Below the pieces are notes generated by a model. That model searched no databases. It worked only from the letters and a program-made list of their open reading frames with translations, and was not told where the DNA came from. The position numbers and the translations under genes were made by a program. From Kiritimatiellia bacterium (lineage in GTDB: Bacteria; Verrucomicrobiota; Kiritimatiellia; CAIQIC01; Lenti-01), in NCBI GenBank assembly GCA_040768005.1, contig JAXGNL010000009.1, forward strand, positions 1,471 to 65,470: DNA of 64,000 nt, in the 5' to 3' direction. Positions 2,081 through 40,130 of the stretch are shown one piece after another. Within the stretch, counting starts at the first letter, position 1; each line of letters opens with the position of its first letter.

Positions 2081-2117
2081 TCCCGCCCGTCCGCGCCCCG
2101 GCCGCCGGGCGTCCGGA

Positions 2118-3149
2118 TTATCGTCCGGGTTTCTTGAGGAATGGCCGGGGCCGGGGCGACGGGGCGGCCGAGGGCGCGGTAAGGGCCCGGGTGCAGCGCG
2201 CAGTCGGCGGCCTCTTCGTCCACGCAGGGCTTGCCGGGATAGAGCTGGTAGTCGCGGCGGAACGGTTGGGGTGGCGTTGCTAGCGAAGACGTTGGAGCCG
2301 CATCGGAGCGCGCGGTCGCGCCCGTCGGGAAACAGCGCATCGAAGGCGGTCGTGCGGGCGTCGGGGACAGGCCAGGCGCAGGACGGCGATGGCGCGGAAA
2401 ACAGGTCGGGATCGCCGGCGTAGGCGTTGGACTCGTTTTCGCGGGGTGCCGGGGCAGGGAATGAAGGGGCCGATGCCGATCATGTCGAAATCGAACTCCC
2501 GGCAAAGGAGGATGTTGCCGGCGAGGGTGTCGGGGGTTTCGCCGGGCAGGCCGATCATGAAGCCGCCGCCGGTCTGCACGCCCAGCGCCTGCAGGTCGCG
2601 CAGGCAGCGCAGGCGGTCGGCCAGCGTGCTGCCGGGATGCAGGCGGGCAAAGAGGTCCGGATCGGAGGTTTCGAAGCGCAGCAGGTAGCGATCCATGCCC
2701 GCATCGCGCCAGCGGGCATAGACGTCGCGCGGGCGGTTGCCGACGGACAGCGTGATGGCCAGCGCCGGGAATTCGGTCTTGATCCGCCGCAGCAGGGCGG
2801 CAAGATCGTCATCGGCCGGGCCGGGGGTTTCGCCGGACTGCAAGACGACCGTGCCGGCGGTTCCGGCGGCGGCAATGCCGCGGACGGCGGCGAGAATCTC
2901 GTCAGGCGTCATCCGGTAGCGGGCGGGGAGGGGGTTGGAGGCGCGGATGCCGCAGTAGAGGCAGTCGTTGGCGCAGGCATTGGAAAACTCCAGGATGGCG
3001 CGGACGGGGACGGCATCGCCGCAATGCGCCCGGCGCACGGCGTCGGCCCGGGCAAACAGCGCGTCCTGCGCCGGGCCCCGGGCGGCGAGCAGACGCCGCC
3101 ATTCCGCGCGGGATCCGGATTTTCCATGGTGTGGAAAAATGTTTTCCAT
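2118..3149 (-). pseudogene. hydE: radical SAM enzyme, HydE-like ([FeFe]-hydrogenase maturase family), 3' third split over three frames as read
   Basis: ILEFSNACANDCLYCGIRASNPLPARYRMTPDEI and VVLQSGE match the HydE/BioB-type CX3CX2C region. After GPFIPCPGTP the homologous sequence continues in other frames (ENESNAYAGDPDL / FRAIAVLRLACP / DARTTAFDALFPDGRDRALRCGSNVFASNATP / QPFRRDYQLYPGKPCVDEEAADC). The 3' end and the start codon are uncertain; the start lies inside a repeat. Confidence 0.6.
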
Positions 3150-3192
3150 AGCGTGGAAAACTACCACAAAAATTTTCCATGGCGTGGAAAAT
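3119..3192. repeat. triple-palindrome element, copy 1 (three TTTTCCAYRGYGTGGAAAA units)
   Basis: 19-nt palindromic units at 3120-3138, 3142-3160 and 3173-3191. Centre spacing is 22 and 31 bp, identical to copy 2 at 27133-27204. Confidence 0.85.
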
Positions 3193-4712: not shown

Positions 4713-5210
4713 TCAGTCCCGGGGGGGCGGGGCGAGGCGGGCGGCGATGGCGCGGGCCTTGACGGAAAGGAGAAGGCCGGCGGCGAGCTGGACCAGGCCG
4801 GGCAGGAACTGGCGAAGAACGTGAAACTCGGGGTACTGCGTCCCGGGGTGCAGAAGGTTGACGGCGGTGGCGGCGATCTGGGAGAGGGAGCGGACGGCGA
4901 GATAGACGCCGATGAGGGTGAGGCCGACGACGAGGGCGGAATCCGGCGTGAAGGCCCCGAGGGGGGCCTCGGTGTTCAGGTTCAGTTTGCCGGCCAGCCA
5001 CTCGGTGCGGACCAGGAGGATCCAGACGGCGGCCAGCGAGGCGAACAGGGCCAGGAGGGAGAGCAGGAGGCCGGCGGCCAGCTGCGGGACAGGCGGATGG
5101 TCGCCCAGCGCCCAGAAGAACAGGCCGATGATCTGGAACGAGGTGATCAGGACAAGATAGAGCAGGACCAGGCCCAGCAGCTTGGCGAAGACGAGGAACA
5201 GGTTTTTCAC
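4713..5210 (-). CDS. integral membrane protein, unknown function
   Basis: GTG at 5210 preceded by GGAGAC. VKNLFLVFAKLLGLVLLYLVLITSF... with four hydrophobic segments. Lies immediately downstream of ileS. Confidence 0.55.
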   Translation of the reverse strand: MKNLFLVFAKLLGLVLLYLVLITSFQIIGLFFWALGDHPPVPQLAAGLLLSLLALFASLAAVWILLVRTEWLAGKLNLNTEAPLGAFTPDSALVVGLTLIGVYLAVRSLSQIAATAVNLLHPGTQYPEFHVLRQFLPGLVQLAAGLLLSVKARAIAARLAPPPRD

Positions 5211-5226
5211 GGGAGTCTCCGGGGGA

Positions 5227-8200
5227 TCAGGCCTTGGCCAGGGCGATGGCGCAGGGGTGGCCGTTGATGTCGAGATCGCCGGGGCCGGGGACGGCGGCAA
5301 GTTCGACGGCGAGGGTCTCGGCGGCGATGGTGTCCCGGTGGGCTTCGATGGCGGAGAGCAGTTCGGCGTCGGCGGCGATCTTCAGGGTGATGCGGTCGGC
5401 GACGTCGAGGTTCTGGGTCTTGCGCTGGTTCTGGATGCGGTTGATGAGTTCGCGCGCGTGGCCTTCCTGGACGAGGGCGGGGGTCAGGTTGGTTTCGAGG
5501 GCGACGACGAGGGCGCCGCTGGAAGCGACGGCGAGGCCGTGCCGGGGGGTGCGCTGGATCAGGACATCCGCCGGATCGAGTTTGACGGGCTTGCCTTCCA
5601 GCACAATGACGACGGACTGGTTGTCGAGCAGCTCCGCGAGCTCCTCGGTGCCGAAGGAGGCGATGGCGGCGACGGCTTTTTTCATGAGGCCGCCGAGCCG
5701 GGGGCCGAGGGTCTTGAAGTTGGCCTTGGCGGAGAGCTCGGCGAGGGCGGTTTCATCGCGGCCGAAGCGGACTTCCTTGACGTTGAGTTCGTCGGCGACG
5801 ATGTCGGCGAGGGGGCGGACGAGGTCGAGGACGGCGTCGTCGCGGCAGACGACATGGAGGGCGGCGAGGGGCTGGCGGACCTTGAGGTTGAAGTCGGCGC
5901 GGAGCTGGCGGGCGAGGCCGACGACTTCCTGGACGCGGGCCATCTGGGCTTCGAGGGCTTCGTCGCGCGGCAGGGTTCCGGGGAGGGGATAGTCGCAGAG
6001 GTGGACGGATTCGGGCATGTCGTCCGTCCGCAGGTTGCGGTGGATCTCCTCGGAGAGGAAGGGGGTGAAGGGCGCGGCGATCCGGCACAGGCGCAGCAGA
6101 ACGGTGTGAAGGGTTTCGTAGGCGCGGGTCTTGTCGGCGTCGTCCTCGCTCTTCCAGAAGCGCCGGCGGGAGCGGCGGATGTACCAGTTGGTGAGGTCGT
6201 CAATGAACTGCACGAGGGGCCGGACGGCCTGCTGGAGGTCGTAGGCGTCCAGGGCGGCGACGACATCGCCGGCAAGCCGGTCGAGGGTGGAGAGGATCCA
6301 GCGGTCCATGAGGGAGGGGGAGGGGGGAGTTGGAATGGTGGAATGATGGAATGATGCAGGGGCCGATCCGTTCGGATCTGCGCCTTCTGTCCTCTGGCCT
6401 TTGGCGTCGCCGCATGGCGGCTCCCAGCCGTCCACGTTGGCGTAGGTGACGAGGAAGGAGTAGGCATTCCACCAGGGGATGAGGAGGTGGCGCAGGGAGT
6501 GGACGACGCCCTGTTCCGAGAAGCAGAGATCCTCGGCGCGGACGATGGGCGAATGGATCATGTAGAGGCGCAGGGCGTCGGCGCCGTAGGTGTCGAAGAT
6601 GTAGTTGGGGTCGGGGTAGTTCTTGAGGCGCTTGGACATTTTGCGTCCGTCTTCGGCGAGGACGAGGCCGTTGACGATGACGTTCTTGTAGGGGGATTTT
6701 CCGAACAGGGCGGTGCCGAGGAGCATCAGGGTATAGAACCAGCCGCGGGTCTGGTCGAGGCCTTCGGCGATGAAATCGGCGGGGAAGAATTTGTCCAGTT
6801 CACCGGCCCGTTCGAAGGGGTAGTGCTGCTGGGCGTAGGGCATGGAGCCGGATTCGAACCAGCAGTCGAGCACTTCGGGGGTGCGGCGGTAGGTCTTGCC
6901 GTTGAGCGTGAAGGTGATCTTGTCCACGTGGTGCTTGTGGAGGTCGGCGACCTTCCGGCCGGAAAGCTGTTCGAGTTCGGCGATGGAGCCGACGCAGACC
7001 ATGTCCTGGCCGTCCTCGGAGACCCAGACGGGGATGCAGGAGCCCCAGAAGCGGTTGCGGGAGATGTTCCAGTCCTTGGCTTCCTTGAGCCAGTTGCCGA
7101 AGCGCTTTTCGCCGACGGCCTGGGGGACCCAATGGACGGGGGCGTTGCTTTCGGCGAGGCGGTCGCGGAGATCTTCGACGCGGACATACCAGGCCTCGAT
7201 GGCGCGGTAGATCAGCGGGGTGTCGGTGCGCGGGCAGAAGGGATAGGAGTGGACCAGGGTGGACTGGTGCACCAGCTTGCCGGCGTCTTTCAGCGAACGG
7301 ATGATGGGTTTGTCGGCGTCCTTGCAGAAGACGCCGTGGAATTCGGGGACGGATTCGGTGAAGGCGCAGACATCGTCGAGATAGTCGCGCAGGGGGATGC
7401 CGGCGGCCTGACAGACGCGGAAGTCGTCCTCGCCGAAGGCGGGGGCGATGTGCACGAACCCGGTGCCGTCCTCGGTGCTGACGAAGCCGTCATTGAGGAT
7501 GCGGAACGCGCCGGGGGCGTCGTCCTTGAAGGTATCGAAGATCGGCTCGTAGGTGAGTCCGAGCAGGTCGGCGCCCGTGAAGGCGGCGAGGGTTTCGTAC
7601 TGGTCGGGTTTCTGGTAATAGGCGGCGAGCCGGGCTTCGGCGAGGAGATAGATGCTGCGGTCGGCGGCGTCGCGGACGGCGACATAGGGGATATCGGGTC
7701 CGGCGCAGATGGCGAGGTTGCCGTAGAGGGTCCAGGGGGTGGTGGTCCAGATGAGGGCATAGACGGGGGAGCCGCCGGCCTCGAGGCCGGCGGGCAGAGA
7801 CGTCAGCTTGACGCGGACGGTGATGGAGGGGTCCTGGACGTCCTGGTAGTTGCTGCCGGCCTCGAAGTTGGAGAGGGGGGTGTTGAGCTTCCAGGAATAG
7901 GGCATGATGCGGTGGGACTTGTACACGCGGCCCTGCTCCCAGAGCTGCTTGAACACCCACCAGATGGTCTCCATGAAGGAGGGGTCCATCGTTTTGTAAT
8001 CGTTGTCGAAGTCCACCCAGCGGCCCATGCGGGTGACGGTTTTGCGCCATTCCTCGACGTAGGTGAGCACCATGGAGCGGCAGGTTTCGTTGAAGACATC
8101 CACGCCCCGGGCGGCGATGTCGGCGGCGCCGGAGAGCCCGAGCTTCTCCTGGGCGAGGGCCTCGATGGGCAGGCCGTGGCAGTCCCAGCCGAAACGCCGT

Positions 8201-8512: not shown

Positions 8513-8741
8513 GGTTGCCGCAGACGGAAAAATCCAACGCTTGTCCTTACCCAGAGAGTCCGGGCAGATGAAACGGGCGGGAAAAAGCCATAGGAAGCCG
8601 GGGGCCGAGTGTCTCGGTTATAATTATAAGCGAGACGGCATGGTTGGGGACTGATGCGGATTTGAGCGATGTCCGGGACAGGTCCGGTGCCGACCTGATT
8701 CGCGCCGCAAGGGGCGCGAGGGGGGCTCGGAGAGGAGGGGG

Positions 8742-9147
8742 TCAGTCTTCGACGACGAGTTCGGGGGCGTAGCGGTTGTGGGAGGCGTTGAGGGAATTCG
8801 CCGGAGAGGGCGAGGCACTGCTTGGGGCAGATTTCGGTGCACTGCGCACTGGATGCACTGGGGAGACGAAAATGCGGATTTTCTTGACGGGGGGGGATGG
8901 CTTCGATGGCGTGGGCCGGGCAGACCTTGATGCAGAGGTTGCAGCCGATGCAGGTTTCGCGGTTGTAGGTCATTTTGCCGCGCAGTTTGTCGGGGACGGG
9001 GACGGTGGGATTCAGCCGGGCCTCGCCTTTGCCGACCTGTTCGAGCAGGCCGGTGACGGTGGGGGGCAGGTGGGCGGCGGGGAAGGGGTTGGTGTTGGGT
9101 TTGCGGAGAAGCTGTCCGAGGACTTCGTGGACCATGGGGAAGGGCAT
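8742..9147 (-). pseudogene. mbhN: Mbh hydrogenase 2x[4Fe-4S] ferredoxin subunit (NuoI/EchF-like), 3' half split over frames as read
   Basis: ATG 9147 after AAGGAG. MPFPMVHEVLGQLL...CIGCNLCIKVCPAHAIEAIPP. A C8 run follows. The second cluster is recovered only by joining frames: VKKIRIFVS / QCIQCA / QCTEICPKQCLALSGEF / LNASHNRYAPELVVED-stop. Confidence 0.7.
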
Positions 9148-9157
9148 GTCGGCTCCT

Positions 9158-10165
9158 TTACTGGATGCGGGCGTCGGCGATGACGAGGAGAAGGCCCAGG
9201 AGGGCGAGGGCGCCCAGGGCTTTCCAGTAGATGTCCACCACCTGGTTGATGCGGAAGCGGGCCACGGAGACCCGGACGAGGGAGACGGAAAAGAACAGGA
9301 CAAGGAGGGCCTTGACGATGAAGAAGGCGGCATCCGCGGCGCCGGCCGTCAGGGGGGAGGAAAAAGCGATCCATCGGGACAGGTTCCAGGGGAAGAAAAG
9401 GGCGACGAGCAGGGAGACGACGACGACGGTTTTGACGGCGAAGGAGAGGGTGAAGAGGGCGAGGTTGCGGCCGGAGTACTCGACGATGAGACCGCCGGCG
9501 ATTTCGGTTTCAGCCTCGGGGGCGTCGAAGGGGATGCGCCCGAGTTCGCCGGGGACGACGAGGACCATGGTGGCCAGCAGGAGAAAGACGCCGACGGCGC
9601 CGAGGGGGCCGACGAGGGACCAGATGGGCGTGGCGGCGAGGGAGGAGAGGGCGAAGGGGGCGGGGGAGCCGGCCTGGACGAGTTTCCAGGCGAAGGCGAT
9701 GATGGTGGTGGCGAGGGGCAGTTCGTAGGCGATCATGGTGACCATTTCGCGCTGGGCGCCGATGGTGGCGTAGGGAGAGCCGGAGGACAGGCCGCCGGCG
9801 ACCATGGCGAGGGCGGGAATGGCGAGGAGGTAGAGGATGAGGACGAGGTCGCCGTAGGCGCCGAGGACGGGGAGGAAGCCGAAGGAGGCCATGGGGATAT
9901 AGAGCAGGAGGGTGATGGAGGCGGCGAGGGCGACCAGGGGCGCGCCGTTGAAGAGCCACGGAATGGCGTTGGAGGGGACGATATTCTGCTTGGTCAGGAG
10001 CTTGGCAATGTCAATGAACGGCTGGCGGACGGGGGGGCCGATACGCGCCTGCATGCGGGCGGCGACGACGCGGTCGAGGCCGGCGACCCAGAGGCCGGCG
10101 AGGATGCCGAAGACGCTCATGGCGGCGGCGCCGCCGATGGCCAGAAGAATGGGGGCGATGTTCAT
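9158..10165 (-). CDS. mbhM: Mbh hydrogenase membrane subunit (NuoH/HycD/EchB-like)
   Basis: 335 aa. RMQARIGPP..., AQREMVTMIAYELPL and PFDAPEAETEIAGG are NuoH-family motifs. Confidence 0.85.
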   Translation of the reverse strand: MNIAPILLAIGGAAAMSVFGILAGLWVAGLDRVVAARMQARIGPPVRQPFIDIAKLLTKQNIVPSNAIPWLFNGAPLVALAASITLLLYIPMASFGFLPVLGAYGDLVLILYLLAIPALAMVAGGLSSGSPYATIGAQREMVTMIAYELPLATTIIAFAWKLVQAGSPAPFALSSLAATPIWSLVGPLGAVGVFLLLATMVLVVPGELGRIPFDAPEAETEIAGGLIVEYSGRNLALFTLSFAVKTVVVVSLLVALFFPWNLSRWIAFSSPLTAGAADAAFFIVKALLVLFFSVSLVRVSVARFRINQVVDIYWKALGALALLGLLLVIADARIQ

Positions 10166-10174
10166 GGGCGGATC

Positions 10175-11429
10175 CTATCGGGCCGGGGAGGCCTGGATGC
10201 GGCGGGTTTTTTCGACGGAGAGGCGGTGGAGGTCGTCCTTGGTCAGGATGCGGCGGTCGCCGTCCTTGAGGAGGGCGACGCGGTCGGTGCAGGAGATGCA
10301 CGGATCGATGGAGGCGGCGATGATGGGGATGTCGGCGATCTGTTCGCCTTCCATCATGGGAATCCAGGCCATGTAGTTGGAGTAGGAGGAGGCCTTGACC
10401 TTCCAGGCGACGGGCTCATCCTTGCCGGCTTCGAGGCGGACGTAGTGCATGACTTCGCCGCGGGGGGCCTCGTGGCGGCCGACGGCTTCGCCGGCGGCGC
10501 CCTTGAGCTTGGCGAGGAGGACGGCGGGCTTGGGAATGGCGAGCAGGGGCCCGTCGGGCATCTGGGCCAGGAGTTGGCGGACGATGCCGATGGACTGCCT
10601 GACCTCGAGGAGGCGGGTGACGATGCGGTCATAGACGTCGCCGCGGACTTCGCCGGTGAGCAGGTCGGGGGTTTGGTATTCGATTTCGATGTCGGCGTAG
10701 GCGGCGTAGGGGTGGTCCACGCGGACATCCTTTTTGATGCCGGAGGCGCGGGCGGTGGGGCCGACGGGGCAGAGTTCGCGGGCTTCGTCGTAGGTCAGCA
10801 CGCCGCAGTCGCGGCAGCGCATCTGGACGGTGGTGTCATCGAGGAAGACGGCGGCGAGTTTGCCGTAGGCCTCCTCGAAAAACTTCATGGATTCCTCGAT
10901 GCGGGGAAACTGATCGGGGACGATGTCGCGACGGACGCCGCCGATCTGGATCATGGCGTAATGGACGCGGTTGCCGGTGAGGTACTCGAGGAGGTCCATG
11001 ACGTTTTCACGGACGCGCCAGGCCATATAGAAGGCGGAATCGAAGCCGAGTTCGTGGGCGGCGACGCGGCCAAGAGGAGGTGGGGAGTGGATGCGTTCGA
11101 GTTCGCCTACGACGATGGAGCGGACTCTAGTGGGCGCGGTTGGGGACCTGGATCTGGGCGATCTGCTCGACGGCGCGGACGAAGGAAATGGAATGGGTAA
11201 TGCCGCAGATGCCGCAGATGCGCTCGGCGAGGTACATGACCTGGATGCAGTTGCGGCGCATGCCCATCCATTCGATGCCGCGATGGGCCATGCCGGGGGC
11301 GAAGTCGGCCTTTTTGATCCGTTCGCCCTCGATATCGAGGGTGAACATGACGGGCTCCTTGAGCGCGGGGTGCGCGGGGCCGATCTGCGTGGTGTAGCCG
11401 GAGGGCTTTTTGACTTCGATGGTTTTCAT
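10175..11429 (-). pseudogene. mbhL: [NiFe]-hydrogenase large (catalytic) subunit, group 4, interrupted near codon 100 as read
   Basis: N-terminal ORF 11127-11429 carries GPAHPALKEP and the RICGICGITHS motif. C-terminal ORF 10175-11026 ends with DPCISCTDR. Between them, a TAG at 11127-11129 and a +1 frame change; RVRSIVVGELERIHS...RVAAHELGFDSAFYMAW is read in the next frame. Confidence 0.8.
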
Positions 11430-11438
11430 AAATCCACT

Positions 11439-12068
11439 TTAGACAGGATTGACAGGATTGACAGGATCGGGAGGGGGCGGGGCAGCCGGCGCGGCGGGTT
11501 TTTCGGGGGGCGGGGGGAAGTCTTTGAACTGGCAGGAGTCGCGGCCGGTGGCCCAGAGGTCCTTGATCATGTCGGCAGGGATGCCGGTTTCGTCCTTGCG
11601 CCAGGGGAAGACGCCTTCGGGGAAGTCTTCGGGAAGGAAGAGGCGGCGGCCGTCGGGGATGTCCACGACTTCGATGCCGACCATCTCCTGTTTTTCGCGT
11701 TCGCTGGTGAGGGCGCCGGGGATGATGCCGCAGATGGAGGGCACGCGCAGGTCGGCTTTGTCGAGGGGGACGGTGAAGGTGACGAGGATCTCCTGGCCGG
11801 GGATGCCCCAGTACACATAGAAGTGGTACATGAGTTCGACGGCGGGGCCGGTGTCGGCGGAGGCGATGACGGACACATGGGGATAATGGATGTCCACGAG
11901 GCGCTTCAGCGCGGGGATCAGGGCGTCGCGGTTCAGGCGGACCCAGACCTGGTGGCTTTTGCGGCCCTTGAGGCCTTCGGCCCACTCGGTGGTGCGCGCG
12001 TCAAGGAAGCCGGAGCCGGCGGCGGTCCGGAGGGCATCGGCGATTTCCTGGGGAGTCAGCAGATTCAT
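11439..12068 (-). CDS. mbhK: Mbh hydrogenase NuoC-like subunit
   Basis: 209 aa. ...VELMYHFYVYW...EREKQEMVGIEV...PEDFPEGVFPWRKD is NuoC/HycE-N-like. The C-terminal PVNPVNPV is encoded by a GACAGGATT tandem. Confidence 0.8.
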   Translation of the reverse strand: MNLLTPQEIADALRTAAGSGFLDARTTEWAEGLKGRKSHQVWVRLNRDALIPALKRLVDIHYPHVSVIASADTGPAVELMYHFYVYWGIPGQEILVTFTVPLDKADLRVPSICGIIPGALTSEREKQEMVGIEVVDIPDGRRLFLPEDFPEGVFPWRKDETGIPADMIKDLWATGRDSCQFKDFPPPPEKPAAPAAPPPPDPVNPVNPV

Positions 12069-12499
12069 GATGCGGCATTCTCCTTGGCTTCGAGGCGGGC
12101 GAGGGCCTTGACGACGCCGTCAATGATGGCTTCGGGCCGGGGGGGGCAGCCGGGAACGTACATGTCCACGGGGATGACCTGGTCCACGGGACCGACGAGG
12201 GTGTAGGAATCGTAGAAGGCGCCGCCGGTGGTGCCGCAGGCACCGACGCAGACGACGAGTTTGGGGTCGGGCATCTGGTCGTACACGCGGCGGAGGCGGG
12301 GGGCCATCTTGCGGGTGACGGGACCGCTGATCAGCAGGAGATCGGCATGACGCGGGGAGCCGACGACCTTGATGCCGAACCGTTCGAGGTCGTAGCGGGG
12401 GGTGACGCAGGCCACGGATTCGATTTCGCAGCCGTTGCAGGAGCCCGAATTGAACAGGAAGGCCCAGAGGGATTTGCCGAGGGTTTGGGAGAGTTTCAT
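12065..12499 (-). CDS. mbhJ: [NiFe]-hydrogenase small subunit, NuoB-like
   Basis: 144 aa. SGSCNGCEIE, ...VCVGACG..., YVPGCPPRPEAI. Confidence 0.9.
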   Translation of the reverse strand: MKLSQTLGKSLWAFLFNSGSCNGCEIESVACVTPRYDLERFGIKVVGSPRHADLLLISGPVTRKMAPRLRRVYDQMPDPKLVVCVGACGTTGGAFYDSYTLVGPVDQVIPVDMYVPGCPPRPEAIIDGVVKALARLEAKENAAS

Positions 12500-12597
12500 T
12501 TCAAGGGGCTTTCAATATCCAATGTCCAACAAGGAATTTTCAATGTCCAAGGGATGGAAAGTTTCCATTCTGAATCCTGAATTCTGAATCCTGACTC

Positions 12598-12939
12598 CTA
12601 TACCGTTAGGGCGATGACGAGCATGAGGGCCATGACGCCGAGGAGCCAGGCGACGTAATCGGAGGGGATGCCGGTGTGAAAGGGGACGAGTCGGCTGTAG
12701 TAGGCCTTCATGGCCTCGGTGAATCCCCAGTAGAGGTTGGAGGCGGGGATGTGGCCGCCGGCGTTTTCGGGTTCTTCGTTGCCGGAGATGAACGGCTTGA
12801 GGGCGTCGCCGCTGCGGTTGTCGGGGCGTCCGCGGGAGCGGACGAGCCAGGCGACGCCGAAGGCGACAGCGAAGCCGACGAGCCAGAGGAGGGGATTCCA
12901 GGCGCCGGCGCCGGTTTGCAGGGTCCAGGGGATATCCAT
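12598..12939 (-). CDS. mbhI: Mbh small membrane subunit (MbhI position)
   Basis: 113 aa with two TM helices. Sits between the MrpD-like and NuoB-like genes, as in Pyrococcus mbh. Assignment is by synteny. Confidence 0.6.
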   Translation of the reverse strand: MDIPWTLQTGAGAWNPLLWLVGFAVAFGVAWLVRSRGRPDNRSGDALKPFISGNEEPENAGGHIPASNLYWGFTEAMKAYYSRLVPFHTGIPSDYVAWLLGVMALMLVIALTV

Positions 12940-12940
12940 C

Positions 12941-14518
12941 TCAATGTCCTCCGAGAATGGCGGCGATGTAGCCGGCGCGGTCGACGAGGGCGTTGACGGC
13001 GGGGGCGATCATGCGGTCGACGAATGCCTGCGGGACGAGGCCGGCAAGGATGACGAAGGCGGCGAGGATGGCCATGCCGGCGATCATGGGGGCGGGGACT
13101 TCGCGGACGCCGGCGAACTCGGCGCGGGGCGGGCCCATGAACATGGAGTGGAAGACCTTCACGAAGGAGGCCAGGGTGAGGATGCTGACGACCATGGCGA
13201 GGATGGCGAGGAAGGGGGAGAAGCGGAAGACGGATTCGTAGATGAGGAGCTTGGAGGCAAAGCCGTTGAAGGGGGGGATGCCGGCGATGGCGAGCGCGCC
13301 GATCATGAAGAAGACCATGGTCCAGGGCATGGCGTGGCCGAGGCCGCCGAGGCGGTTGAGGTTGCGGGTGCCGGTGCGGTAGAAGACGGCGCCGGCGGTG
13401 AGGAAGAGGAGGCCCTTGTACATGGCGTGGTTGATGATGTGGAAGAGGCCGCCGGCCATGGCGGTTTTGCCGTAGGCGGCCAGCGCGCCGGCATCCGCGA
13501 AGACGGCGAGGCCGACGCCGACGCCGAGGAGCATGTAGCCGGTCTGCGAGACGGCGTGATAGGCCATGAGGCGTTTGACGTCCTTCTGGGGGATGGCCAT
13601 GGTGACGCCGACGAAGGCGGAAAGGGCGCCGAGGATGACGAGAAACCAGCCGAAGACGGCCCAGTTGAAGCGCAGCAGGTCGCCGTAGAGCGTGAAGAGG
13701 ATCCGGAAGAGGCCGTAGAGGCTGGCCTGGCTGGACACGACGAGCAGGGCGGTGATGGAGGATGGGGCGGTGGTATAGGTGTCGGGGGTCCAGAAGTGCA
13801 TGGGCACGGCGCCGCACTTCATGGCCAGCGGCACGGCCAGCAGGACCAGGGCGATCATGTCGAGGGCGCCGAACCGGAGCCGGGAGGCGACGGTGGCGAT
13901 GTTCAGCGCGTTGTACTGGGCGAAGAGGATGCCGATGGCCATCAGGACGCTGAGGGCGCCCACGGTGCTGAGCAGGGCGTACTTCAGGCCGCCCTCGACC
14001 GCTTCGCCCTGGTCAATCCGGTAGGCGACGAGGGCGGCGCCGGCCAGCGAGGAGATTTCGAGGAAGACGAAGAAGTTGAACAGGTCGCCGGTGGAGACCA
14101 TGCCGAGGACGCCGGCGACGAGCAGGAAGAGCATGGAATAGAAGCCGTCCTTGCCGGACTGGCGGGATTCGGCGGCGAGGGAATAGAGGGTGATGGCCAG
14201 GGAGGAGAGCGCGGCAATGACGACCATGAGGGCGCCGAGGGCGTCCACCTGGAAGATGATGCGGATGGGGATGCCGCCGGAATCCATGGGAATGGCGGCA
14301 TGGGGGGCGGCGGCGCCGAAGACATAGAGGACGGTGCCGCCGGCGAAGACGCGGGCGGCGAGGGCAAGGCCGGCCAGCGAGGTCAGGGCCGCGCCGAGGA
14401 TCACGAGGGCGGAGCGGACGGTGCCGCCCGCGCGCCCGGCGAGGGGGATGAGGAAGGCGGTGAAGAGGGGAATGGCGACCAGCAGGGCCGGCAAATGGAG
14501 GGCGAGCGAGTCCATCAT
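12941..14518 (-). CDS. mbhH: MrpD/NuoL-like antiporter-type membrane subunit
   Basis: 525 aa, polytopic, proton-conducting membrane transporter family (...HFWTPDTYTTAPSSITALL..., ...HIINHAMYKGLLFLTAGAV...). Confidence 0.85.
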   Translation of the reverse strand: MMDSLALHLPALLVAIPLFTAFLIPLAGRAGGTVRSALVILGAALTSLAGLALAARVFAGGTVLYVFGAAAPHAAIPMDSGGIPIRIIFQVDALGALMVVIAALSSLAITLYSLAAESRQSGKDGFYSMLFLLVAGVLGMVSTGDLFNFFVFLEISSLAGAALVAYRIDQGEAVEGGLKYALLSTVGALSVLMAIGILFAQYNALNIATVASRLRFGALDMIALVLLAVPLAMKCGAVPMHFWTPDTYTTAPSSITALLVVSSQASLYGLFRILFTLYGDLLRFNWAVFGWFLVILGALSAFVGVTMAIPQKDVKRLMAYHAVSQTGYMLLGVGVGLAVFADAGALAAYGKTAMAGGLFHIINHAMYKGLLFLTAGAVFYRTGTRNLNRLGGLGHAMPWTMVFFMIGALAIAGIPPFNGFASKLLIYESVFRFSPFLAILAMVVSILTLASFVKVFHSMFMGPPRAEFAGVREVPAPMIAGMAILAAFVILAGLVPQAFVDRMIAPAVNALVDRAGYIAAILGGH

Positions 14519-14871
14519 CCGTTGAGCTTTCTGATGTTCCGGACATCCACGGTTCCGTACTTCTTGTAGATCACCATGGCGAACGACAGCATCATGGCGG
14601 AGGTGGCCACGCCGATGACGATGGCGGTCAGGGTGAGGGCCTGCACGGTGGGCAGGACCATGAGGGTCTGGGGGGCGTTGGTGAAGATGGGGGCGATGCC
14701 GTCCTGGCGGTAGCCGATGGCGACGAGGAACAGGTTGACGGCGGATTCCATCAGGGAGAGCCCCATCAGCATCTTGATGAGGTTGCGCTTGAAGAGGAGG
14801 GCGCCGAGGGCCAGCAGGAGCAGGACGGCGACGGTCAGGAAGGGCATGGCCAGCAGCAGGCGGGTGATCAT
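14515..14871 (-). CDS. mbhG: MrpC/NuoK-like subunit
   Basis: Internal ATG 14871: MITRLLLAMPFLTVAVLLLL...MESAVNLFLVAIGY. The upstream part of the track ORF is Arg/Pro-rich and non-coding. Confidence 0.8.
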   Translation of the reverse strand: MITRLLLAMPFLTVAVLLLLALGALLFKRNLIKMLMGLSLMESAVNLFLVAIGYRQDGIAPIFTNAPQTLMVLPTVQALTLTAIVIGVATSAMMLSFAMVIYKKYGTVDVRNIRKLNG

Positions 14872-15335
14872 GGCTCGGACTCCTTCAGGCCGGAGAGCAT
14901 ATAGAGCAGGATGACGGTGAGGCCGCCGAGGACTTCGATGCCGACGGCGATGTTCAAGAGCGGGATGAGGCCGGCGGTGTTGAGGACGCCGGGGTTGGCG
15001 CCGAAGGCGACGGGTTCGCCGAAGAGCCCGCCGGCGCCCGCGAGCCGGTTGTGCAAGAAGGCGCCGCCGGCGAACAGGCCGGCGAGGCCGGCGGTGATGA
15101 ACATCAGCAGGCCGACGGCTTCGCAGAGCTTCATGGTGTTCTGGCGCAGGCTTTGGATGATGTCGGCATAGCGGCGCGAGACGAGCAGGAGGGCCGCGCC
15201 GGTGGCCATGACGGCGCCGCCCTGGAACCCGCCGCCGGGGGTCAGGTGGCCGTGGAGAACGACGTAGAGCCCGAAAACGAGGCAAAAGGGATAGAACAGG
15301 TCGGCGGTGGTTCGCACGATCTTAGTCATGTTCAT
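14868..15335 (-). CDS. mbhF: MrpB (MnhB-domain) subunit
   Basis: 155 aa. HGHLTPGGGFQGGAV is the MnhB signature. Confidence 0.8.
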   Translation of the reverse strand: MNMTKIVRTTADLFYPFCLVFGLYVVLHGHLTPGGGFQGGAVMATGAALLLVSRRYADIIQSLRQNTMKLCEAVGLLMFITAGLAGLFAGGAFLHNRLAGAGGLFGEPVAFGANPGVLNTAGLIPLLNIAVGIEVLGGLTVILLYMLSGLKESEP

Positions 15336-15606
15336 ATTCTTCTCCGGGCTTGAGCTTGCGGAACATCATGCCGACGCCGAGGACGGCGGTGAACAGGACG
15401 GTGGCTTCGCCGAGGGTGTCGAAGCCGCGGAAGTCGAAGACGACGGAGGTGACGACATTGTTGGCGGCGGCCTGATCCTGGGCGTGGGCCAGGAAGTAGT
15501 CGTCCATGTCGGTGCGGGCGGGTTTCCCGAAGGGCAGGCCGACGGCGATCTGGAGGAAGCCGGCCAGCAGGACCAGGAGGATGGCGGTAAAGAGGGCGGT
15601 GCGCAT
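15322..15606 (-). CDS. mbhE: Mbh small membrane subunit (MbhE position)
   Basis: ATG 15606: MRTALFTAILLVLLAGF...NVVTSVVFDFRGFDTLGE, MrpA C-terminal-like. Assignment is by synteny. Confidence 0.65.
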   Translation of the reverse strand: MRTALFTAILLVLLAGFLQIAVGLPFGKPARTDMDDYFLAHAQDQAAANNVVTSVVFDFRGFDTLGEATVLFTAVLGVGMMFRKLKPGEEYEHD

Positions 15607-15860
15607 CAGTCCTTCTCCTCGTAGCGCTGGGTGCCGCGGATGGCGATGATGAAGATGGCGGTGGTGAGGCCGGCGCCGATGCCGGCCTCGGCGATGGCGA
15701 CGTCGGGGGCCTGGAGCAGGTAGAATTCCAGCGCCAGCAGCAGGCTGAAGGCGGCGAAGGCGATGGCGGAGGAGAGCAGGTCCTTGAACGCAATCACCAG
15801 GACGGCGGTGACGATCAGGCCGAGCAGCAGGAGGGCTTGCAGCAGCAGCAGCGGGGTCAT
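15606..15860 (-). CDS. mbhD: Mbh small membrane subunit (MbhD position, DUF4040-like)
   Basis: ATG 15860: MTPLLLLQALLLLGLIVTAVLVIAFKDLLSSAI...QAPDVAIAEAGIG. Confidence 0.65.
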   Translation of the reverse strand: MTPLLLLQALLLLGLIVTAVLVIAFKDLLSSAIAFAAFSLLLALEFYLLQAPDVAIAEAGIGAGLTTAIFIIAIRGTQRYEEKD

Positions 15861-16213
15861 GGGGCGGGTTCCTCCAGCTTGTCCACCACGGCCTGCGCGG
15901 GCTTGTGGCCGCGGCGGCGGGCGGCGCGGGCAATGGCATGCGCGCCGGTGGCGTTGGTGATGGCCAGGACGACAACGGCGACCAGCGTGTGCAGCAGGAG
16001 CGTGGCGTACTGGCCGTCGGCGGTCTCGAACAGGCGGCCGAGGGCGTAGAGCGCCACGGCCAGCGACGTGAAAATGGAGCCGAAAGTGGTGGCCTTGGTG
16101 TCGGCGTGCAGCCGGGTATAGACGTCGGGGAAGCGCAGGATGCCGAACACGCCCAGGGCGTTGAAAAACAGTCCGATCGCGATGGCGGCGCCGATGAGCA
16201 GGTTGAGGATCAC
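15857..16213 (-). CDS. mbhC: MrpG/MnhG-like subunit
   Basis: GTG 16213 overlaps the upstream stop (GTGA). VILNLLIGAAIAIGLFFNALGVFGILRFPDVYTRLHADTKATTFG is the MnhG signature. Confidence 0.8.
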   Translation of the reverse strand: MILNLLIGAAIAIGLFFNALGVFGILRFPDVYTRLHADTKATTFGSIFTSLAVALYALGRLFETADGQYATLLLHTLVAVVVLAITNATGAHAIARAARRRGHKPAQAVVDKLEEPAP

Positions 16214-16464
16214 AGTTCGCCTCCGAGGTACTTGGCGATATAGAGCGTGCCCACGAACGACAGCAGGGCATAGACGATGGCGACATCCACGAAGAGGATC
16301 TGCCGGAAGGCGGCCGCCAGCACGATCATCGAGGCGACGACGAGGGTGTTGATGGCGTCGAGCGCGACGACGCGGTCGGCGGAGGTGGGCCCCTTGAAGA
16401 GCCGCACCATCGCCAGCAGCATCAGCGCGGCCAGCACCGTGACGGTGAACAACCAGATGCTCAT
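16210..16464 (-). CDS. mbhB: MrpF/MnhF-like subunit
   Basis: 84 aa. ...LFKGPTSADRVVALDAINTLVV... Confidence 0.8.
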   Translation of the reverse strand: MSIWLFTVTVLAALMLLAMVRLFKGPTSADRVVALDAINTLVVASMIVLAAAFRQILFVDVAIVYALLSFVGTLYIAKYLGGEL

Positions 16465-16991
16465 TCGGCGATCCTCCGGATCCAGCTGGGGCAGTCAAAG
16501 GTCGAGAAGACCTCGCGCGCCTCCAGCGACTCGCGGGTTTCGATGCCTTGGGGGACGTTGATCATGTGGACAAACAGGTCGTTGGTGTCTTCGTCGATTC
16601 CGACGGTGAGGGTGCCGGGGGTGAGGGTGATGGAGTTGGCCAGCATCAGGACGCCGAGGTCGGACTGCATGCCGGAGCGGACGCGGACGATGCCCGGGCG
16701 GATGCGGCCGGTGATGACCCGGTAGGCGACATCCACGTTCGCCTTGGCCATTTCCAGGAAGAACGGGCCGCAGACATAGCCGATGGCGCGGACCCAGCGC
16801 ATGGGCTGGAGCGCCGCCCGGCGGCGGGGATCGCAGAAGAATCCCCGGGCGACCCAGCCGACAACGGCGGCCAGGATCACGCCGGCCAGCAGGTCGGCGC
16901 CCGACCACAGACCCAGCAGGCGGCCGGATCCGGCCGTGAGCAATAGATAGACAACAAATGAAAAGCAACCCGTGGCAATAAAAGAGGCCAT
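16461..16991 (-). CDS. mbhA: MrpE/MnhE-like subunit
   Basis: ATG 16991: MASFIATGCFSFVVYLLL...ANVDVAYRVITGRIRPGIVRV...ANSITLTPGTLTV. Confidence 0.8.
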   Translation of the reverse strand: MASFIATGCFSFVVYLLLTAGSGRLLGLWSGADLLAGVILAAVVGWVARGFFCDPRRRAALQPMRWVRAIGYVCGPFFLEMAKANVDVAYRVITGRIRPGIVRVRSGMQSDLGVLMLANSITLTPGTLTVGIDEDTNDLFVHMINVPQGIETRESLEAREVFSTFDCPSWIRRIAE

Positions 16992-23047: not shown

Positions 23048-23175
23048 GTGCAGACCGGCAGAGGCCGGCGCCGGACGCCAGCGGGTGAGCGGCGTTGAGC
23101 TTGTGCGCGGCCCGGAACCGCGACGCCCGGGCTTGACTGGGACGCAGGGCATGATAGTTTCGGCTCCGATAAATG

Positions 23176-23280
23176 GTCGCTAGGGGTGTCCTCGAGAAAG
23201 AGGGCTGAGAGTTCCCGTTGGGCGGGATAACCCTTGGAACCTGTTGGATCATTCCAGCGCAGGGACAGCGGATCGCTCGA
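23176..23280 (+). promoter_or_regulatory. TPP (THI-box) riboswitch
   Basis: GGGGTG...CTGAGA...ACCCTTGGAACCTGTTGGATCATTCCAGCGCAGGGA matches the conserved THI-box core. Lies directly upstream of cytX-thiM-thiE-thiD. Confidence 0.85.
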
Positions 23281-23366
23281 AAGAAGCCGTGGTTTCTCCG
23301 ATGGAACCGCGGCTTTGGCATGCCGTGGCGGCAGGCTCCCCGGCGCACCGGAAAGGAACCGGAGAC

Positions 23367-26988: not shown

Positions 26989-27132
26989 GGAGGGAGGATG
27001 AGGCCTGCGGTCCGAGGGGGGACAGGGGGAGCTGGATCAGCCAAGCAGGAAAACAGGAAACCCAGGAAAGCAGGAATGGGGAGGGGACAGGGGACAGGGG
27101 GCAGGAGACAGGAGACAGGCCGGTTTTCCGGA

Positions 27133-38425: not shown

Positions 38426-38467
38426 TCCGACGCGCCGTCCCATCTCTCCTGGCAAAGGAATCCTCCC

Positions 38468-40126
<1,659 letters not shown>

Positions 40127-40130
<4 letters not shown>

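What the first reader, a model, noticed from the sequence alone, without database searches (positions are those of the whole stretch)
8742..16991. Complete 14-gene Mrp-Mbh membrane-bound [NiFe]-hydrogenase cluster with archaeal (Pyrococcus mbhA-N) gene order
Reading the minus strand, the order is MrpE-, MrpF- and MrpG-like, two small MrpA-C-terminal-like subunits, MrpB-, MrpC- and MrpD-like, a small membrane subunit, then NuoB-, NuoC-, NuoD-, NuoH- and NuoI-like. That is the order I recall for P. furiosus mbhA through mbhN. Most junctions overlap by 4 nt (ATGA/GTGA), indicating translational coupling. The large subunit keeps both Ni-binding CxxC pairs (RICGIC, DPCISC), so it is a hydrogenase rather than an Mbx/Mbs-type or complex-I-type module. 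No hyp maturation genes lie in the window, and the nearby maturase-like gene is HydE ([FeFe]-type). A respiratory, ion-pumping H2-evolving complex in this bacterial lineage is physiologically notable.
Basis: partly seen in the sequence, partly recalled or inferred. Interest (0 to 1): 0.65.

Follow-up and report, generated by a model that had tools for sequence, protein, structure and literature searches.

The report
Mbh hydrogenase operon with broken frames
A Kiritimatiellia bacterium carries the 14-gene operon for an archaeal-type, membrane-bound, ion-pumping hydrogen-producing [NiFe] hydrogenase (Mbh); it is a known kind of enzyme that many public genomes of this lineage also carry, and in this copy two of its genes are interrupted by clustered small insertions and deletions that look like assembly errors.

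Summary
The 14 minus-strand genes at 8742-16991 are real. They match P. furiosus mbhA-N one to one and in the same order (Pfam, NCBIfam MbhI, PDB 6CFW chains). The large subunit scores 395 bits against MBH, 236 against HycE and 145 against MBS, so this is an Mbh-type, Mrp-linked group 4 [NiFe]-hydrogenase.

"Complete" does not hold for the sequence as given. mbhL carries a TAG plus four indels within 61 bp, so RICGIC and DPCISC lie in different frames. mbhN carries four indels that break its second 4Fe-4S motif.

Six public loci (five contigs), 99.6-99.96% identical, have intact mbhL (416 aa) and mbhN (135 aa). Similar window-only patches hit hydE, an ABC-F gene and an intergenic spacer. The breaks are therefore most likely assembly errors, not decay.

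The closest archaeal relatives are Methanomicrobiales Mbh operons, with the same 14 genes and 48-75% identity. All 14 genes are under purifying selection.

MbhH belongs to a subfamily that lacks the central TM8 lysine of P. furiosus MbhH.

No hyp or hycI genes lie in the window. Maturation could not be tested.

Verdict: a new member of a known kind, of modest interest.

The parts
16461..16991 (-). mbhA (MrpE-like), 176 aa
   Evidence: Pfam PF01899 MNHE, E 6.6e-34. Best PDB hit is 6cfw_A, 126 bits.
16210..16464 (-). mbhB (MrpF-like), 84 aa
   Evidence: PF04066, 1.9e-18. Matches 6cfw_B. The Asp35/Asn38/Thr39 equivalents D36/N39/T40 are conserved.
15857..16213 (-). mbhC (MrpG-like), 118 aa, GTG start
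   Evidence: PF03334, 5.3e-23. Matches 6cfw_C, 100.8 bits. Thr42 and Thr86 are conserved; Pro88 is replaced by Ala.
15606..15860 (-). mbhD (MrpA C-terminal-like), 84 aa
   Evidence: PF13244 MbhD, 1.5e-18. Matches 6cfw_D. Glu69 is conserved in the DVAIAEA stretch.
15322..15606 (-). mbhE (MrpA C-terminal-like), 94 aa
   Evidence: PF20501 MbhE, 1.1e-13. Matches 6cfw_E.
14868..15335 (-). mbhF (MrpB-like), 155 aa
   Evidence: PF04039 MnhB, 7.8e-28. Matches 6cfw_F, 81.6 bits.
14515..14871 (-). mbhG (MrpC/NuoK-like), 118 aa
   Evidence: PF00420, 9.7e-25. Matches 6cfw_G and 6u8y_G. Asp37 is replaced by Glu and His41 by Asn, as in MBS.
12941..14518 (-). mbhH (MrpD-like antiporter subunit), 525 aa
   Evidence: PF00361. 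NCBIfam NF006240, 716 bits against a cutoff of 662. Matches 6cfw_H, 341 bits. E143, K225, H346, H350, K354 and K409 are conserved. The TM8 residue K256 is missing.
12598..12939 (-). mbhI, 113 aa
   Evidence: NCBIfam NF053600 MbhI equivalog, 116.7 bits against a cutoff of 95. Matches 6cfw_I.
12065..12499 (-). mbhJ (NuoB-like small subunit), 144 aa
   Evidence: PF01058, 4.6e-34. Matches 6cfw_J, 186 bits. Cysteines lie at positions 21, 24, 88 and 118, in CNGC, GACG and GCPP contexts.
11439..12068 (-). mbhK (NuoC-like), 209 aa, with a strain-variable Pro-rich C-terminal tail
   Evidence: PF00329, 3.9e-20. The tail length is 193-209 aa in near-identical contigs. A 9-nt x2.9 repeat lies at 11442-11467.
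10175..11429 (-). mbhL ([NiFe] large subunit, NuoD-like), frame-broken in this window; orthologues are 416 aa
   Evidence: Pfam: PF00374 and PF00346. Best PDB hit: 6cfw_L, 395 bits, 49% identity. The gene is split by a TAG and indels at 11067-11127. RICGIC and DPCISC lie in different frames.
11067..11127 (-). Lesion patch in mbhL: TAT>TAG (11127), +G (11125), +GTA (11110-11108), +C (11085), G>T (11072), -G (11067)
   Evidence: These differences are absent from all six near-identical public loci: L001-L005 and L012. L002 and L012 come from the same contig.
9158..10165 (-). mbhM (NuoH-like), 335 aa
   Evidence: PF00146, 1.4e-64. Matches 6cfw_M, 178.6 bits. Glu141 is conserved.
8742..9147 (-). 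mbhN (NuoI-like 2x[4Fe-4S] ferredoxin-binding subunit), frame-broken in this window; orthologues are 135 aa
   Evidence: The first motif, CIGCNLCIKVCP, is intact at 8952-8917. The second is split across frames: QCIQC in one, QCTEICP in another. The intact orthologue scores NF006221 at 142.6 bits against a cutoff of 124.
8794..8897 (-). Lesion patch in mbhN: C10>C8 (8896), +C (8863), GGG>G (8845), +C (8794)
   Evidence: These differences are absent from all six near-identical public loci. All four are changes in homopolymer length.

Best explanation
This is the operon of a 14-subunit Mbh-type (Mrp-linked, ferredoxin-coupled) respiratory [NiFe]-hydrogenase in an uncultured Kiritimatiellia bacterium.

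Inferred mechanism, by homology with P. furiosus MBH:
- Reduced ferredoxin from sugar fermentation docks on MbhN.
- Electrons pass through the two MbhN clusters and the MbhJ cluster to the Ni-Fe site of MbhL.
- There, protons delivered by the Glu21 equivalent are reduced to H2.
- The free energy is transmitted through MbhM/MbhI to the antiporter-like MbhH, which moves H+, and to the Mrp-like MbhA-G module, which exchanges Na+/H+. This builds an ion gradient for ATP synthesis.

Shown: gene content, gene order, homology, ligand and key-residue conservation, purifying selection and collinearity with the Methanomicrobiales operon.

Inferred: electron donor, direction and coupling ion.

The stop codon and frameshifts in mbhL and mbhN of this window are most likely local consensus or assembly errors. 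The biological operon is most likely intact.
For: Identity of the cluster:
- Family hits cover all 14 genes in mbhA-N order.
- Each of A-I maps to the same-letter 6CFW chain in the same order. H, J and M also have 6CFW as their best hit.
- MbhL scores 395 bits to 6cfw_L, against 236 for HycE and 145 for MBS.
- Conserved residues: four Ni-Fe cysteines and the Glu21 and His75 equivalents in MbhL; four cysteines in MbhJ; in the intact orthologue, eight cysteines in MbhN; MbhH E143/K225/H346/H350/K354/K409; MbhM E141; MbhB D35/N38/T39; MbhD E69.
- dN/dS is 0.08-0.59 for every gene against two other species.
- The same 14 genes occur in Methanoculleus and in another PVC-type contig.
- No FDH or CODH gene lies next to the operon. 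The flanks are a phosphofructokinase gene and IleRS.

Artefact reading of the frame breaks:
- Six public loci (five contigs; L002 and L012 share one), 99.6-99.96% identical, all have intact mbhL (416 aa) and mbhN (135 aa).
- From mbhA to the 3' end of mbhK (11488), the window differs from L004/L006 by 3 substitutions and no indels over 8.5 kb. The remainder, 11433-8742, differs from L004 only by the two lesion patches plus two substitutions.
- Over 43.4 kb covered by at least two comparators, all window-specific indels fall in a few short patches. These also hit hydE (2138-2703), an ABC-F gene (39636-39790) and an intergenic spacer (26998-27126).
- A further patch lies in an integrase gene.
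- Several patches lie near the ends of public short-read contigs.
Against: - No reads are available, and the window's own assembly was not found in the collections. The artefact reading is therefore an inference.
- The TAT>TAG substitution and the +GTA insertion are not typical homopolymer errors.
- Three of the larger patches fall in hydrogen-related genes (mbhL, mbhN, hydE).
- No hyp genes or HycI-type protease lie in the window. A HycI search returned only Methanomicrobiales-named hits. Maturation capacity is therefore unverified, although MbhL has a conserved 34-aa C-terminal extension that implies processing.
- MbhH lacks the TM8 lysine (K256) that has been proposed as the proton-loading site in P. 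furiosus. Ion coupling may therefore differ.
- Direction (H2 evolution versus uptake) and coupling ion are not shown.
Confidence: 0.72

Rival explanations
1. The lesions are real. In this strain the Mbh operon (mbhL, mbhN) and the [FeFe] maturase hydE have been inactivated, so this population is losing hydrogen metabolism.
For: - The sequence as given has a nonsense codon and net frameshifts in mbhL and mbhN. It also has multiple frameshifts in the 3' part of hydE.
- Three of the larger patches hit H2-related genes, although these make up only about 15% of the window.
- Neither the 100-aa MbhL fragment nor the source contig is on record elsewhere, so nothing contradicts the sequence directly.
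Against: - There are six events in 61 bp and four in 103 bp, yet no other indels across the rest of the operon's coding sequence. From mbhA to the 3' end of mbhK (11488), in 8.5 kb compared with L004/L006, there are only 3 substitutions. This pattern is not neutral decay.
- About 10% local divergence beside flanks that are 99.9% identical cannot arise on a clock.
- The same kind of patch occurs in an ABC-F gene, an integrase gene and an intergenic spacer.
- All six near-identical public loci (five contigs) are intact.
- The lineage shows purifying selection on all 14 genes.
Confidence: 0.12
2. The complex is intact but works mainly in reverse. It would take up H2 and use the ion gradient to reduce ferredoxin, as has been proposed for the homologous Mbh of Methanomicrobiales.
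For: - The closest archaeal relatives are the Methanomicrobiales Mbh operons.
- A role in heterodisulfide reduction has been suggested for these in two methanogens that lack F420-non-reducing hydrogenase (PMC2686161).
- The functional elements of MbhH are expected to support reverse proton conduction (PMC8679088).
- The Lys-less MbhH subtype is shared with the methanogens.
Against: - Cultured Kiritimatiellia are sugar fermenters that release H2 (PMC5148204).
- The operon sits next to a glycolytic phosphofructokinase gene.
- No ferredoxin-consuming CO2-fixation or methanogenesis genes lie in the window.
- Direction cannot be read from sequence.
Confidence: 0.13
3. It is not a hydrogenase of the Mbh kind but another member of the complex I superfamily. 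Candidates are an MBS/Mbx-type sulfur reductase, a formate- or CO-linked group 4a/4b/4c complex, or an Ech-type enzyme.
For: - NCBIfam's best names for L, J, M and N are generic 'NADH-quinone oxidoreductase subunit' models, all below their cutoffs for L and M.
- MbhG and the E/F region score slightly higher to MBS chains than to MBH chains.
Against: - All four Ni-Fe cysteines are present, whereas MBS keeps only two (PMC8165549).
- MbhL scores 395 bits to MBH against 145 to MBS and 236 to HycE.
- There is an MbhI equivalog hit.
- The cluster has 14 genes in mbhA-N order, not the 6-gene Ech layout.
- There are no adjacent fdh or CODH genes.
Confidence: 0.03

Closest known systems
Pyrococcus furiosus membrane-bound hydrogenase MBH (mbhA-N; PDB 6CFW; HydDB group 4d, ferredoxin-coupled and Mrp-linked)
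   Same: - Same 14 subunits in the same gene order. Every subunit matches the corresponding chain.
- MbhL is 49% identical, with identical Ni-Fe ligands, Glu21 and His75.
- The three [4Fe-4S] sites are present.
- MbhH E143/K225/H346/H350/K354/K409, MbhM E141, MbhB D35/N38/T39 and MbhD E69 are conserved.
   Different: - The host is bacterial, mesophile-type and high in GC.
- MbhH lacks the TM8 Lys256 and has a two-residue deletion there.
- MbhG has Asp37>Glu and His41>Asn, as in MBS. MbhC has Pro88>Ala.
- MbhK carries a Pro-rich tail that varies between strains.
- No maturation genes lie next to the operon.
Mbh-like operons of Methanomicrobiales (Methanospirillum, Methanocorpusculum, Methanoculleus; PMC2686161)
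   Same: - Closest archaeal relatives. The 14 genes are in identical order with nearly identical lengths, and identity is 48-75% over all subunits.
- They share the Lys-less MbhH TM8 and the conserved C-terminal extension of MbhL.
- They form a sister clade in an NJ tree rooted on P. furiosus.
   Different: - The Methanoculleus locus has a HycI-type protease gene directly downstream. The Kiritimatiellia loci do not; IleRS follows instead.
- The host physiology differs: a methanogen, in which a role in heterodisulfide reduction has been suggested, versus a presumed fermenter.
[quoted passage not shown]
   Same: It has a homologous Mrp-like module. MbsG and MbsE score as well as, or slightly better than, the MBH chains for mbhG and mbhE/F.
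   Different: The catalytic subunit scores only 145 bits. MBS has lost two of the four Ni-Fe cysteines and one ligand of the proximal cluster (PMC8165549). All of these are present here.
Mrp Na+/H+ antiporters (PDB 6Z16, 7QRU, 7D3U)
   Same: mbhA-H are homologues of MrpE, F, G, A(C-terminal), B, C and D.
   Different: There is no full-length MrpA. The module is fused in one operon to a NuoB/C/D/H/I-like hydrogenase module.
E. coli formate hydrogenlyase Hyc/Hyf (PDB 7Z0S; group 4a) and Ech (group 4e)
   Same: All are group 4 [NiFe]-hydrogenases of the complex I superfamily with the same catalytic core.
   Different: Similarity is much lower (HycE 236 bits). There is no formate dehydrogenase partner and no Mrp E/F/G/B/C module in FHL or Ech. 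Ech has six subunits.
Bacterial Mbh+Mrp clusters reported from MAGs (for example Ca. Tritonobacter, Auribacterota; PMC9324843)
   Same: A bacterial, metagenome-derived Mbh hydrogenase with an Mrp module in one cluster, inferred to be ferredoxin-dependent, H2-evolving and Na+-translocating.
   Different: That enzyme was placed by HydDB in group 4g. The subgroup of the present one was not determined, and the two were not compared directly.

Membership tests
Mbh-type respiratory [NiFe]-hydrogenase (P. furiosus MBH; HydDB 4d 'ferredoxin-coupled, Mrp-linked') | Fourteen genes mbhA-N in one operon: Mrp-like E, F, G, A', A'', B, C, D, then MbhI, then NuoB, C, D, H, I-like | tested here: met
   Pfam and NCBIfam hits lie in that order. 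There is a one-to-one match, in the same order, to 6CFW chains A-I, and H, J, L and M also match 6CFW.
Mbh-type respiratory [NiFe]-hydrogenase | Large subunit with both Ni-Fe binding CxxC pairs (RxCGxC...H and DPCxxC) | tested here: inconclusive
   Both motifs are present in the DNA (11222-11205 and 10306-10289). However, a TAG and frameshifts separate them into different frames in this window. They are intact in a single 416-aa ORF in six near-identical public loci.
Mbh-type respiratory [NiFe]-hydrogenase | Large subunit closer to MBH than to MBS, FHL or complex I homologues | tested here: met
   6cfw_L scores 395 bits, against 7z0s_E 236, 2fug_4 175 and 6u8y_L 145.
Mbh-type respiratory [NiFe]-hydrogenase | Three [4Fe-4S] clusters: four Cys in MbhJ and 2 x CxxCxxCxxxCP in MbhN | tested here: inconclusive
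   The MbhJ cysteines are present. The first MbhN motif is intact. The second is disrupted by indels in the window but intact in the orthologues, as CIQCGQCTEICP.
Mbh-type respiratory [NiFe]-hydrogenase | Conserved ion-translocation residues of MbhH, MbhM and the Mrp-like module | tested here: inconclusive
   Most are conserved: H E143/K225/H346/H350/K354/K409, M E141, B D35/N38/T39 and D E69. Exceptions are H K256, which is absent, G D37>E and H41>N, and C P88>A.
Mbh-type respiratory [NiFe]-hydrogenase | HydDB classifier places the large subunit in group 4d | not testable with these tools
   HydDB is not available here. A bacterial Mbh+Mrp cluster in the literature was called 4g (PMC9324843), so the subgroup label is open.
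Mbh-type respiratory [NiFe]-hydrogenase | Maturation machinery (hypA-F and a HycI-type endopeptidase) in the genome | not testable with these tools
   None was found in the scanned genes of the 64-kb window. The genome is not available. A HycI homologue search gave only Methanomicrobiales-named hits. MbhL has a conserved 34-aa C-terminal extension after DPCISCTDR.
Mbh-type respiratory [NiFe]-hydrogenase | Ferredoxin-dependent H2 evolution coupled to Na+/H+ translocation | not testable with these tools
   This requires biochemistry. It is inferred only from homology (PMC8679088, PMC8165549).
MBS/Mbx sulfane sulfur reductase | Loss of two of the four Ni-Fe cysteines and of one ligand of the proximal cluster | tested here: not met
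   All four cysteines and all four MbhJ cysteines are present. Similarity to 6u8y_L is low.
Formate- or CO-linked group 4a/4b/4c complexes | Adjacent formate dehydrogenase or CODH genes, and a HycE/CooH-like large subunit | tested here: not met
   The flanks are a phosphofructokinase gene and IleRS. HycE scores 236 bits against 395 for MBH.

The most novel reading that the evidence does not exclude
The operon may represent a distinct, uncharacterised Mbh subtype shared by PVC bacteria (Kiritimatiellia and relatives) and Methanomicrobiales through inter-domain transfer. In this subtype the antiporter-like subunit MbhH has lost the central TM8 lysine. The O-site residues of MbhG are MBS-like. 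The ion coupling (stoichiometry, ion or direction) would therefore differ from the P. furiosus paradigm.
Probability: 0.2. Interest if true: 0.5.

Novelty: new member of a known kind. Interest (0 to 1): 0.3.

Why it matters
If functional, the complex gives these anaerobic polysaccharide-fermenting PVC bacteria a respiratory way to dispose of ferredoxin electrons as H2 while conserving energy. This would come on top of [FeFe] hydrogenases and Rnf/Nqr-type complexes, and it matters for H2 budgets and syntrophy in digesters and sediments.

The collinear, 48-75% identical operon in Methanomicrobiales is a clean example of a whole 14-gene respiratory module shared between domains.

The Lys-less MbhH subfamily is a natural variant that could inform models of ion coupling in the complex I superfamily.

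There is also a practical lesson. The 'complete' call would have been wrong if taken from this sequence alone. A 'pseudogene' call would probably be wrong as well, because the breaks look like local assembly errors.

Tried and rejected
1. Programmed frameshift or recoding in mbhL. Rejected: orthologues that are 99.9% identical have a plain uninterrupted ORF.

2. Random, evenly spread sequencing error. Rejected: all window-specific indels fall in a few short patches.

3. Hydrogenase-specific decay. Considered because mbhL, mbhN and hydE are all hit. Weakened because the same kind of patch occurs in an ABC-F gene, an integrase gene and an intergenic spacer.

4. Finding the window's own assembly.
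- The one hit of the pattern scan of the GTDB species-representative genomes (genome contigs) is another species, at 82-88% identity.
- Exact look-ups of the 100-aa MbhL fragment and of a 181-aa neighbour found nothing.

5. Searching for a Kiritimatiellia HycI protease with the Methanoculleus HycI as query. Only Methanomicrobiales-named hits appeared. This is uninformative about absence.

6. Taxon names for intermediate MbhL clusters, via cluster look-up. No names were returned.

7. Promoter and terminator scan. Nothing rose above the shuffle expectation, apart from a weak sigma-70-like site in the 98-nt mbhI-mbhJ spacer.

8. Rfam scan. There is no RNA family inside the cluster.

9. Long plus-strand ORFs over the cluster (for example 8975-11200 and 12737-14569). 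Treated as antisense artefacts of 65% GC DNA. The minus-strand frames carry the GC3 signal and all the family hits.

Full report
**What is there**

Window positions 8742-16991 hold fourteen consecutive genes on the minus strand. Their Pfam and NCBIfam matches, in order, are as follows.

| Gene | Match |
|---|---|
| A | MNHE (MrpE) |
| B | MrpF |
| C | MnhG, GTG start |
| D | MbhD |
| E | MbhE |
| F | MnhB |
| G | Oxidored_q2 (MrpC/NuoK-like) |
| H | Proton_antipo_M, 525 aa |
| I | No Pfam hit; meets the NCBIfam equivalog MbhI (116.7 bits, cutoff 95) |
| J | NuoB-like |
| K | NuoC-like |
| L | NuoD/NiFeSe_Hases |
| M | NuoH-like |
| N | 2x[4Fe-4S] protein |

- Searched against the PDB, subunits A-I each match the chain of the same letter of P. 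furiosus MBH (6CFW), in the same order. H, J and M also have 6CFW as their best hit.
- The large subunit scores 395 bits (49% identity) to 6cfw_L. It scores 236 to E. coli HycE, 175 to T. thermophilus Nqo4 and 145 to the MBS catalytic subunit.
- The stated coordinates are exact.
- Six of the 13 junctions are 4-nt ATGA/GTGA overlaps. Two more overlap by 1 and 14 nt.

**What is wrong with 'complete'**

In the sequence as given, mbhL and mbhN are not intact.

- *mbhL.* The gene runs for 100 codons and stops at TAG (11129-11127), directly after VPNRAH. The remainder, from ...RVRSIVVGELERIHS... to the end at 10175, is in another frame. RICGIC (11222-11205) and DPCISC (10306-10289) therefore lie in different frames.
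- *mbhN.* The gene changes frame three times between 8897 and 8794. The second CxxCxxCxxxCP motif is split: QCIQC in one frame and QCTEICP in another.

**Comparison with public sequence**

The identical 525-aa MbhH occurs on 13 public contigs. Loci L001-L006 from these, together with L012, a second stretch of L002's contig fetched, were aligned to the window, and six of the seven span mbhL and mbhN; L006 ends at mbhK.

- They are 99.6-99.96% identical to the window. All six that reach mbhL and mbhN encode an intact 416-aa MbhL and a 135-aa MbhN.
- The window differs from all of them in mbhL at six positions within 61 bp: TAT>TAG (11127), +G (11125), +GTA (11110-11108), +C (11085), G>T (11072) and -G (11067).
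- It differs in mbhN at four positions within 103 bp: C10>C8 (8896), +C (8863), GGG>G (8845) and +C (8794).
- Between 20000 and 11488, which includes mbhA-K, the window differs from L004/L006 by 3 substitutions and no indels in 8.5 kb.

**Are the lesions biological?**

I compared as much of the window as I could with near-identical public contigs.

- 43.4 kb of the window is covered by at least two comparators. Within it, every window-specific indel falls in a handful of short patches:
  - 2138-2703, the 3' part of hydE, with 16 indel positions and 30 substitutions;
  - 8714-8897, mbhN and its 3' flank;
  - 11068-11127, mbhL;
  - 26998-27126, an intergenic spacer, with 29 indel positions and 22 substitutions;
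  - 39636-39790, an ABC-F ATPase gene, with +A and a 6-nt deletion;
  - two single events, at 22399 and at about 26118, both between genes.
- A further patch (55810-56509, 11 indel events) lies in the 5' part of an integrase gene. It is seen against one comparator only.
- Several patches abut places where public short-read contigs end: 8742, 11488, about 2129, 27127 and 55803.
- Local divergence of about 10%, dominated by indels, beside flanks that are 99.9% identical is not what mutation and drift produce. The patches are also not confined to hydrogenase genes.
- I therefore read the frame breaks as local consensus or assembly errors, with about 80% confidence. Genuine inactivation is the minority alternative.
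- The reading is not proven. I have no reads, and the window's own assembly is not in the searched collections.

**Lineage and relatives**

- Named near-relatives of the window's LeuRS and of MbhL are Kiritimatiellia/Kiritimatiellae MAGs. Some carry older labels (Lentisphaerae, Opitutae, Verrucomicrobia).
- MbhL homologues of 88-95% identity are numerous. JGI already labels them 'membrane-bound hydrogenase subunit alpha'.
- At 61-66% identity come the Methanomicrobiales (Methanoculleus, Methanocalculus and others).
  - The Methanoculleus locus has the same 14 genes in the same order, with almost the same lengths.
  - All subunits are 48-75% identical.
  - A HycI-type protease gene follows on the opposite strand.
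- A contig of a more distant MbhL relative (78% identical; labelled Verrucomicrobia or Lentisphaerae) is collinear too.
- An NJ tree rooted on P. furiosus MbhL gives a clade that contains all the bacterially labelled sequences, sister to a Methanomicrobiales clade. This is distance-based, without support values, and most tips carry no taxon name.
- Mbh-like operons in Methanomicrobiales are known (PMC2686161).
- The first cultured Kiritimatiella was described with only [FeFe] hydrogenases and Rnf (PMC5148204).
- Bacterial Mbh+Mrp clusters have been reported from other phyla (PMC9324843).
- dN/dS against two other species is 0.08-0.59 for all genes. The operon is therefore maintained by selection in the lineage.

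**How it most likely works**

This is inferred from homology with MBH (PMC8165549, PMC8679088).

1. Reduced ferredoxin docks on MbhN.
2. Electrons pass through two MbhN clusters and the MbhJ cluster to the Ni-Fe site of MbhL.
3. Protons arrive through the Glu21 equivalent (E25 here).
4. H2 is released.
5. The energy is passed through MbhM/MbhI to MbhH, which translocates H+, and to the MbhA-G module, which exchanges Na+/H+.

Residues checked here:

| Subunit | Conserved | Different |
|---|---|---|
| MbhL | C72/C75/C377/C380, E25, H79 | - |
| MbhJ | C21/C24/C88/C118 | - |
| MbhH | E143, K225, H346, H350, K354, K409 (P. furiosus numbering) | TM8 Lys256 absent |
| MbhM | E141 | - |
| MbhB | D35, N38, T39 | - |
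| MbhC | T42, T86 | Pro88>Ala |
| MbhD | E69 | - |
| MbhG | - | Asp37>Glu, His41>Asn (as in MBS) |

- In place of SGLVIKIGG, MbhH reads VVSSQAS, with a two-residue deletion. The same holds in the other PVC loci and in Methanoculleus.
- In a search of 1.84 billion cluster representatives, the roughly twelve closest full-length relatives all lack this lysine. More distant relatives have the canonical LSGxxxKxxGxY.
- The enzyme therefore belongs to a Lys-less MbhH subfamily. I cannot say what this means for coupling.

**What could not be tested**

- The HydDB subgroup.
- The presence of hypA-F and a maturation protease in the genome. None was found in the scanned genes of the window. MbhL has a strongly conserved 34-aa extension after DPCISCTDR that implies processing.
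- Electron donor, direction and coupling ion.

**Verdict**

This is a genuine Mbh-type, Mrp-linked group 4 [NiFe]-hydrogenase operon with the archaeal gene order, in a Kiritimatiellia genome. It is a new member of a known kind and is already widespread in public assemblies. It is wrong on 'complete' for this sequence and generous on novelty.

Noticed in passing
window 2100-3150 (-), lesions 2138-2703: The [FeFe]-hydrogenase maturase gene hydE is also frame-broken in this window. Its 3' third is spread over three frames and carries 16 indel positions and 30 substitutions relative to two public contigs. In those contigs the gene is an intact 350-aa HydE (TIGR03956, 302 bits).
   Followed up: yes
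window 38465-40132 (+), lesions 39636 and 39790: An ABC-F ATPase gene is 555 aa in two near-identical contigs. In the window it carries a window-only +A frameshift, two substitutions and a 6-nt deletion. This is the same kind of patch as in mbhL and mbhN, but in an unrelated gene.
   Followed up: yes
window 26998-27126: The intergenic spacer between a thiamine-pathway kinase gene and an AI-2E transporter gene has 29 indel positions and 22 substitutions relative to three contigs. A fourth public contig starts exactly at 27127. This is either a low-quality join or a hypervariable spacer.
   Followed up: partly
window 11433-11488; loci L002, L003 and L012 between mbhK and mbhL: The 3' end of mbhK and the K-L spacer vary between strains.
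- The MbhK tail is 193-209 aa, and a 9-nt x2.9 repeat lies at 11442-11467.
- In some strains a 125-aa PF05635 (23S_rRNA_IVP / four-helix-bundle) gene is inserted between mbhK and mbhL.
- Several public contigs break here.
   Followed up: partly
window 12941-14518 (mbhH), around residues 250-270: MbhH lacks the central TM8 lysine (P. furiosus K256) and has a two-residue deletion there. The closest roughly twelve 50%-identity cluster representatives and the Methanoculleus orthologue share this. More distant MrpD/MbhH relatives keep the lysine.
   Followed up: partly
window about 44000-57900: A low-GC (50-54%) island ends at tRNA-Ser (57799-57892) next to a tyrosine integrase gene (56386-57369). 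The 5' part of the integrase gene is frame-broken relative to L019. The island holds a group II intron with RT/maturase (47945-49553), a second intron-like fragment at 45668-45826 and a HigB/HTH toxin-antitoxin pair. It is probably an integrated mobile element.
   Followed up: partly
window 23172-23283 (+): A TPP riboswitch (60 bits, gathering 54.3) lies upstream of a cytosine/purine-type permease. Thiamine salvage genes (hydroxyethylthiazole kinase, TMP synthase, HMP kinase) follow at about 24.6-27 kb.
   Followed up: no
window 1-36000 and 56000-62000: The plus strand has a very strong positive GC skew (0.10-0.29 in 2-kb windows). It persists across genes on both strands. This suggests a replication-strand effect, with the mbh operon on the lagging strand.
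   Followed up: no
window 61094-64000: Beyond about 61.05-61.09 kb the window no longer aligns with any of the four public contigs that match up to that point. Those contigs continue with TPR, HMG-CoA reductase, NUDIX and NMO genes and, in the two longest (L016, L017), an Nqr/Rnf-type cluster. This is either a strain rearrangement or a chimeric join.
   Followed up: no
locus L017 (GCA_040770025.1, JAXGJX010000117.1) 5200-7000: A public assembly of a related strain shows a run of tiny gene calls (31-126 aa, one with a weak NMO hit) where other contigs have intact NUDIX and NMO genes. Frame-broken assemblies of this lineage therefore also exist in public databases.
   Followed up: no
window 12500-12597: The 98-nt mbhI-mbhJ spacer is the only sizeable gap in the operon. 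It holds a 7-nt x4.3 repeat (12570-12599) and a weak sigma-70-like match (12543-12514, minus strand). It may contain an internal promoter for the hydrogenase module.
   Followed up: no
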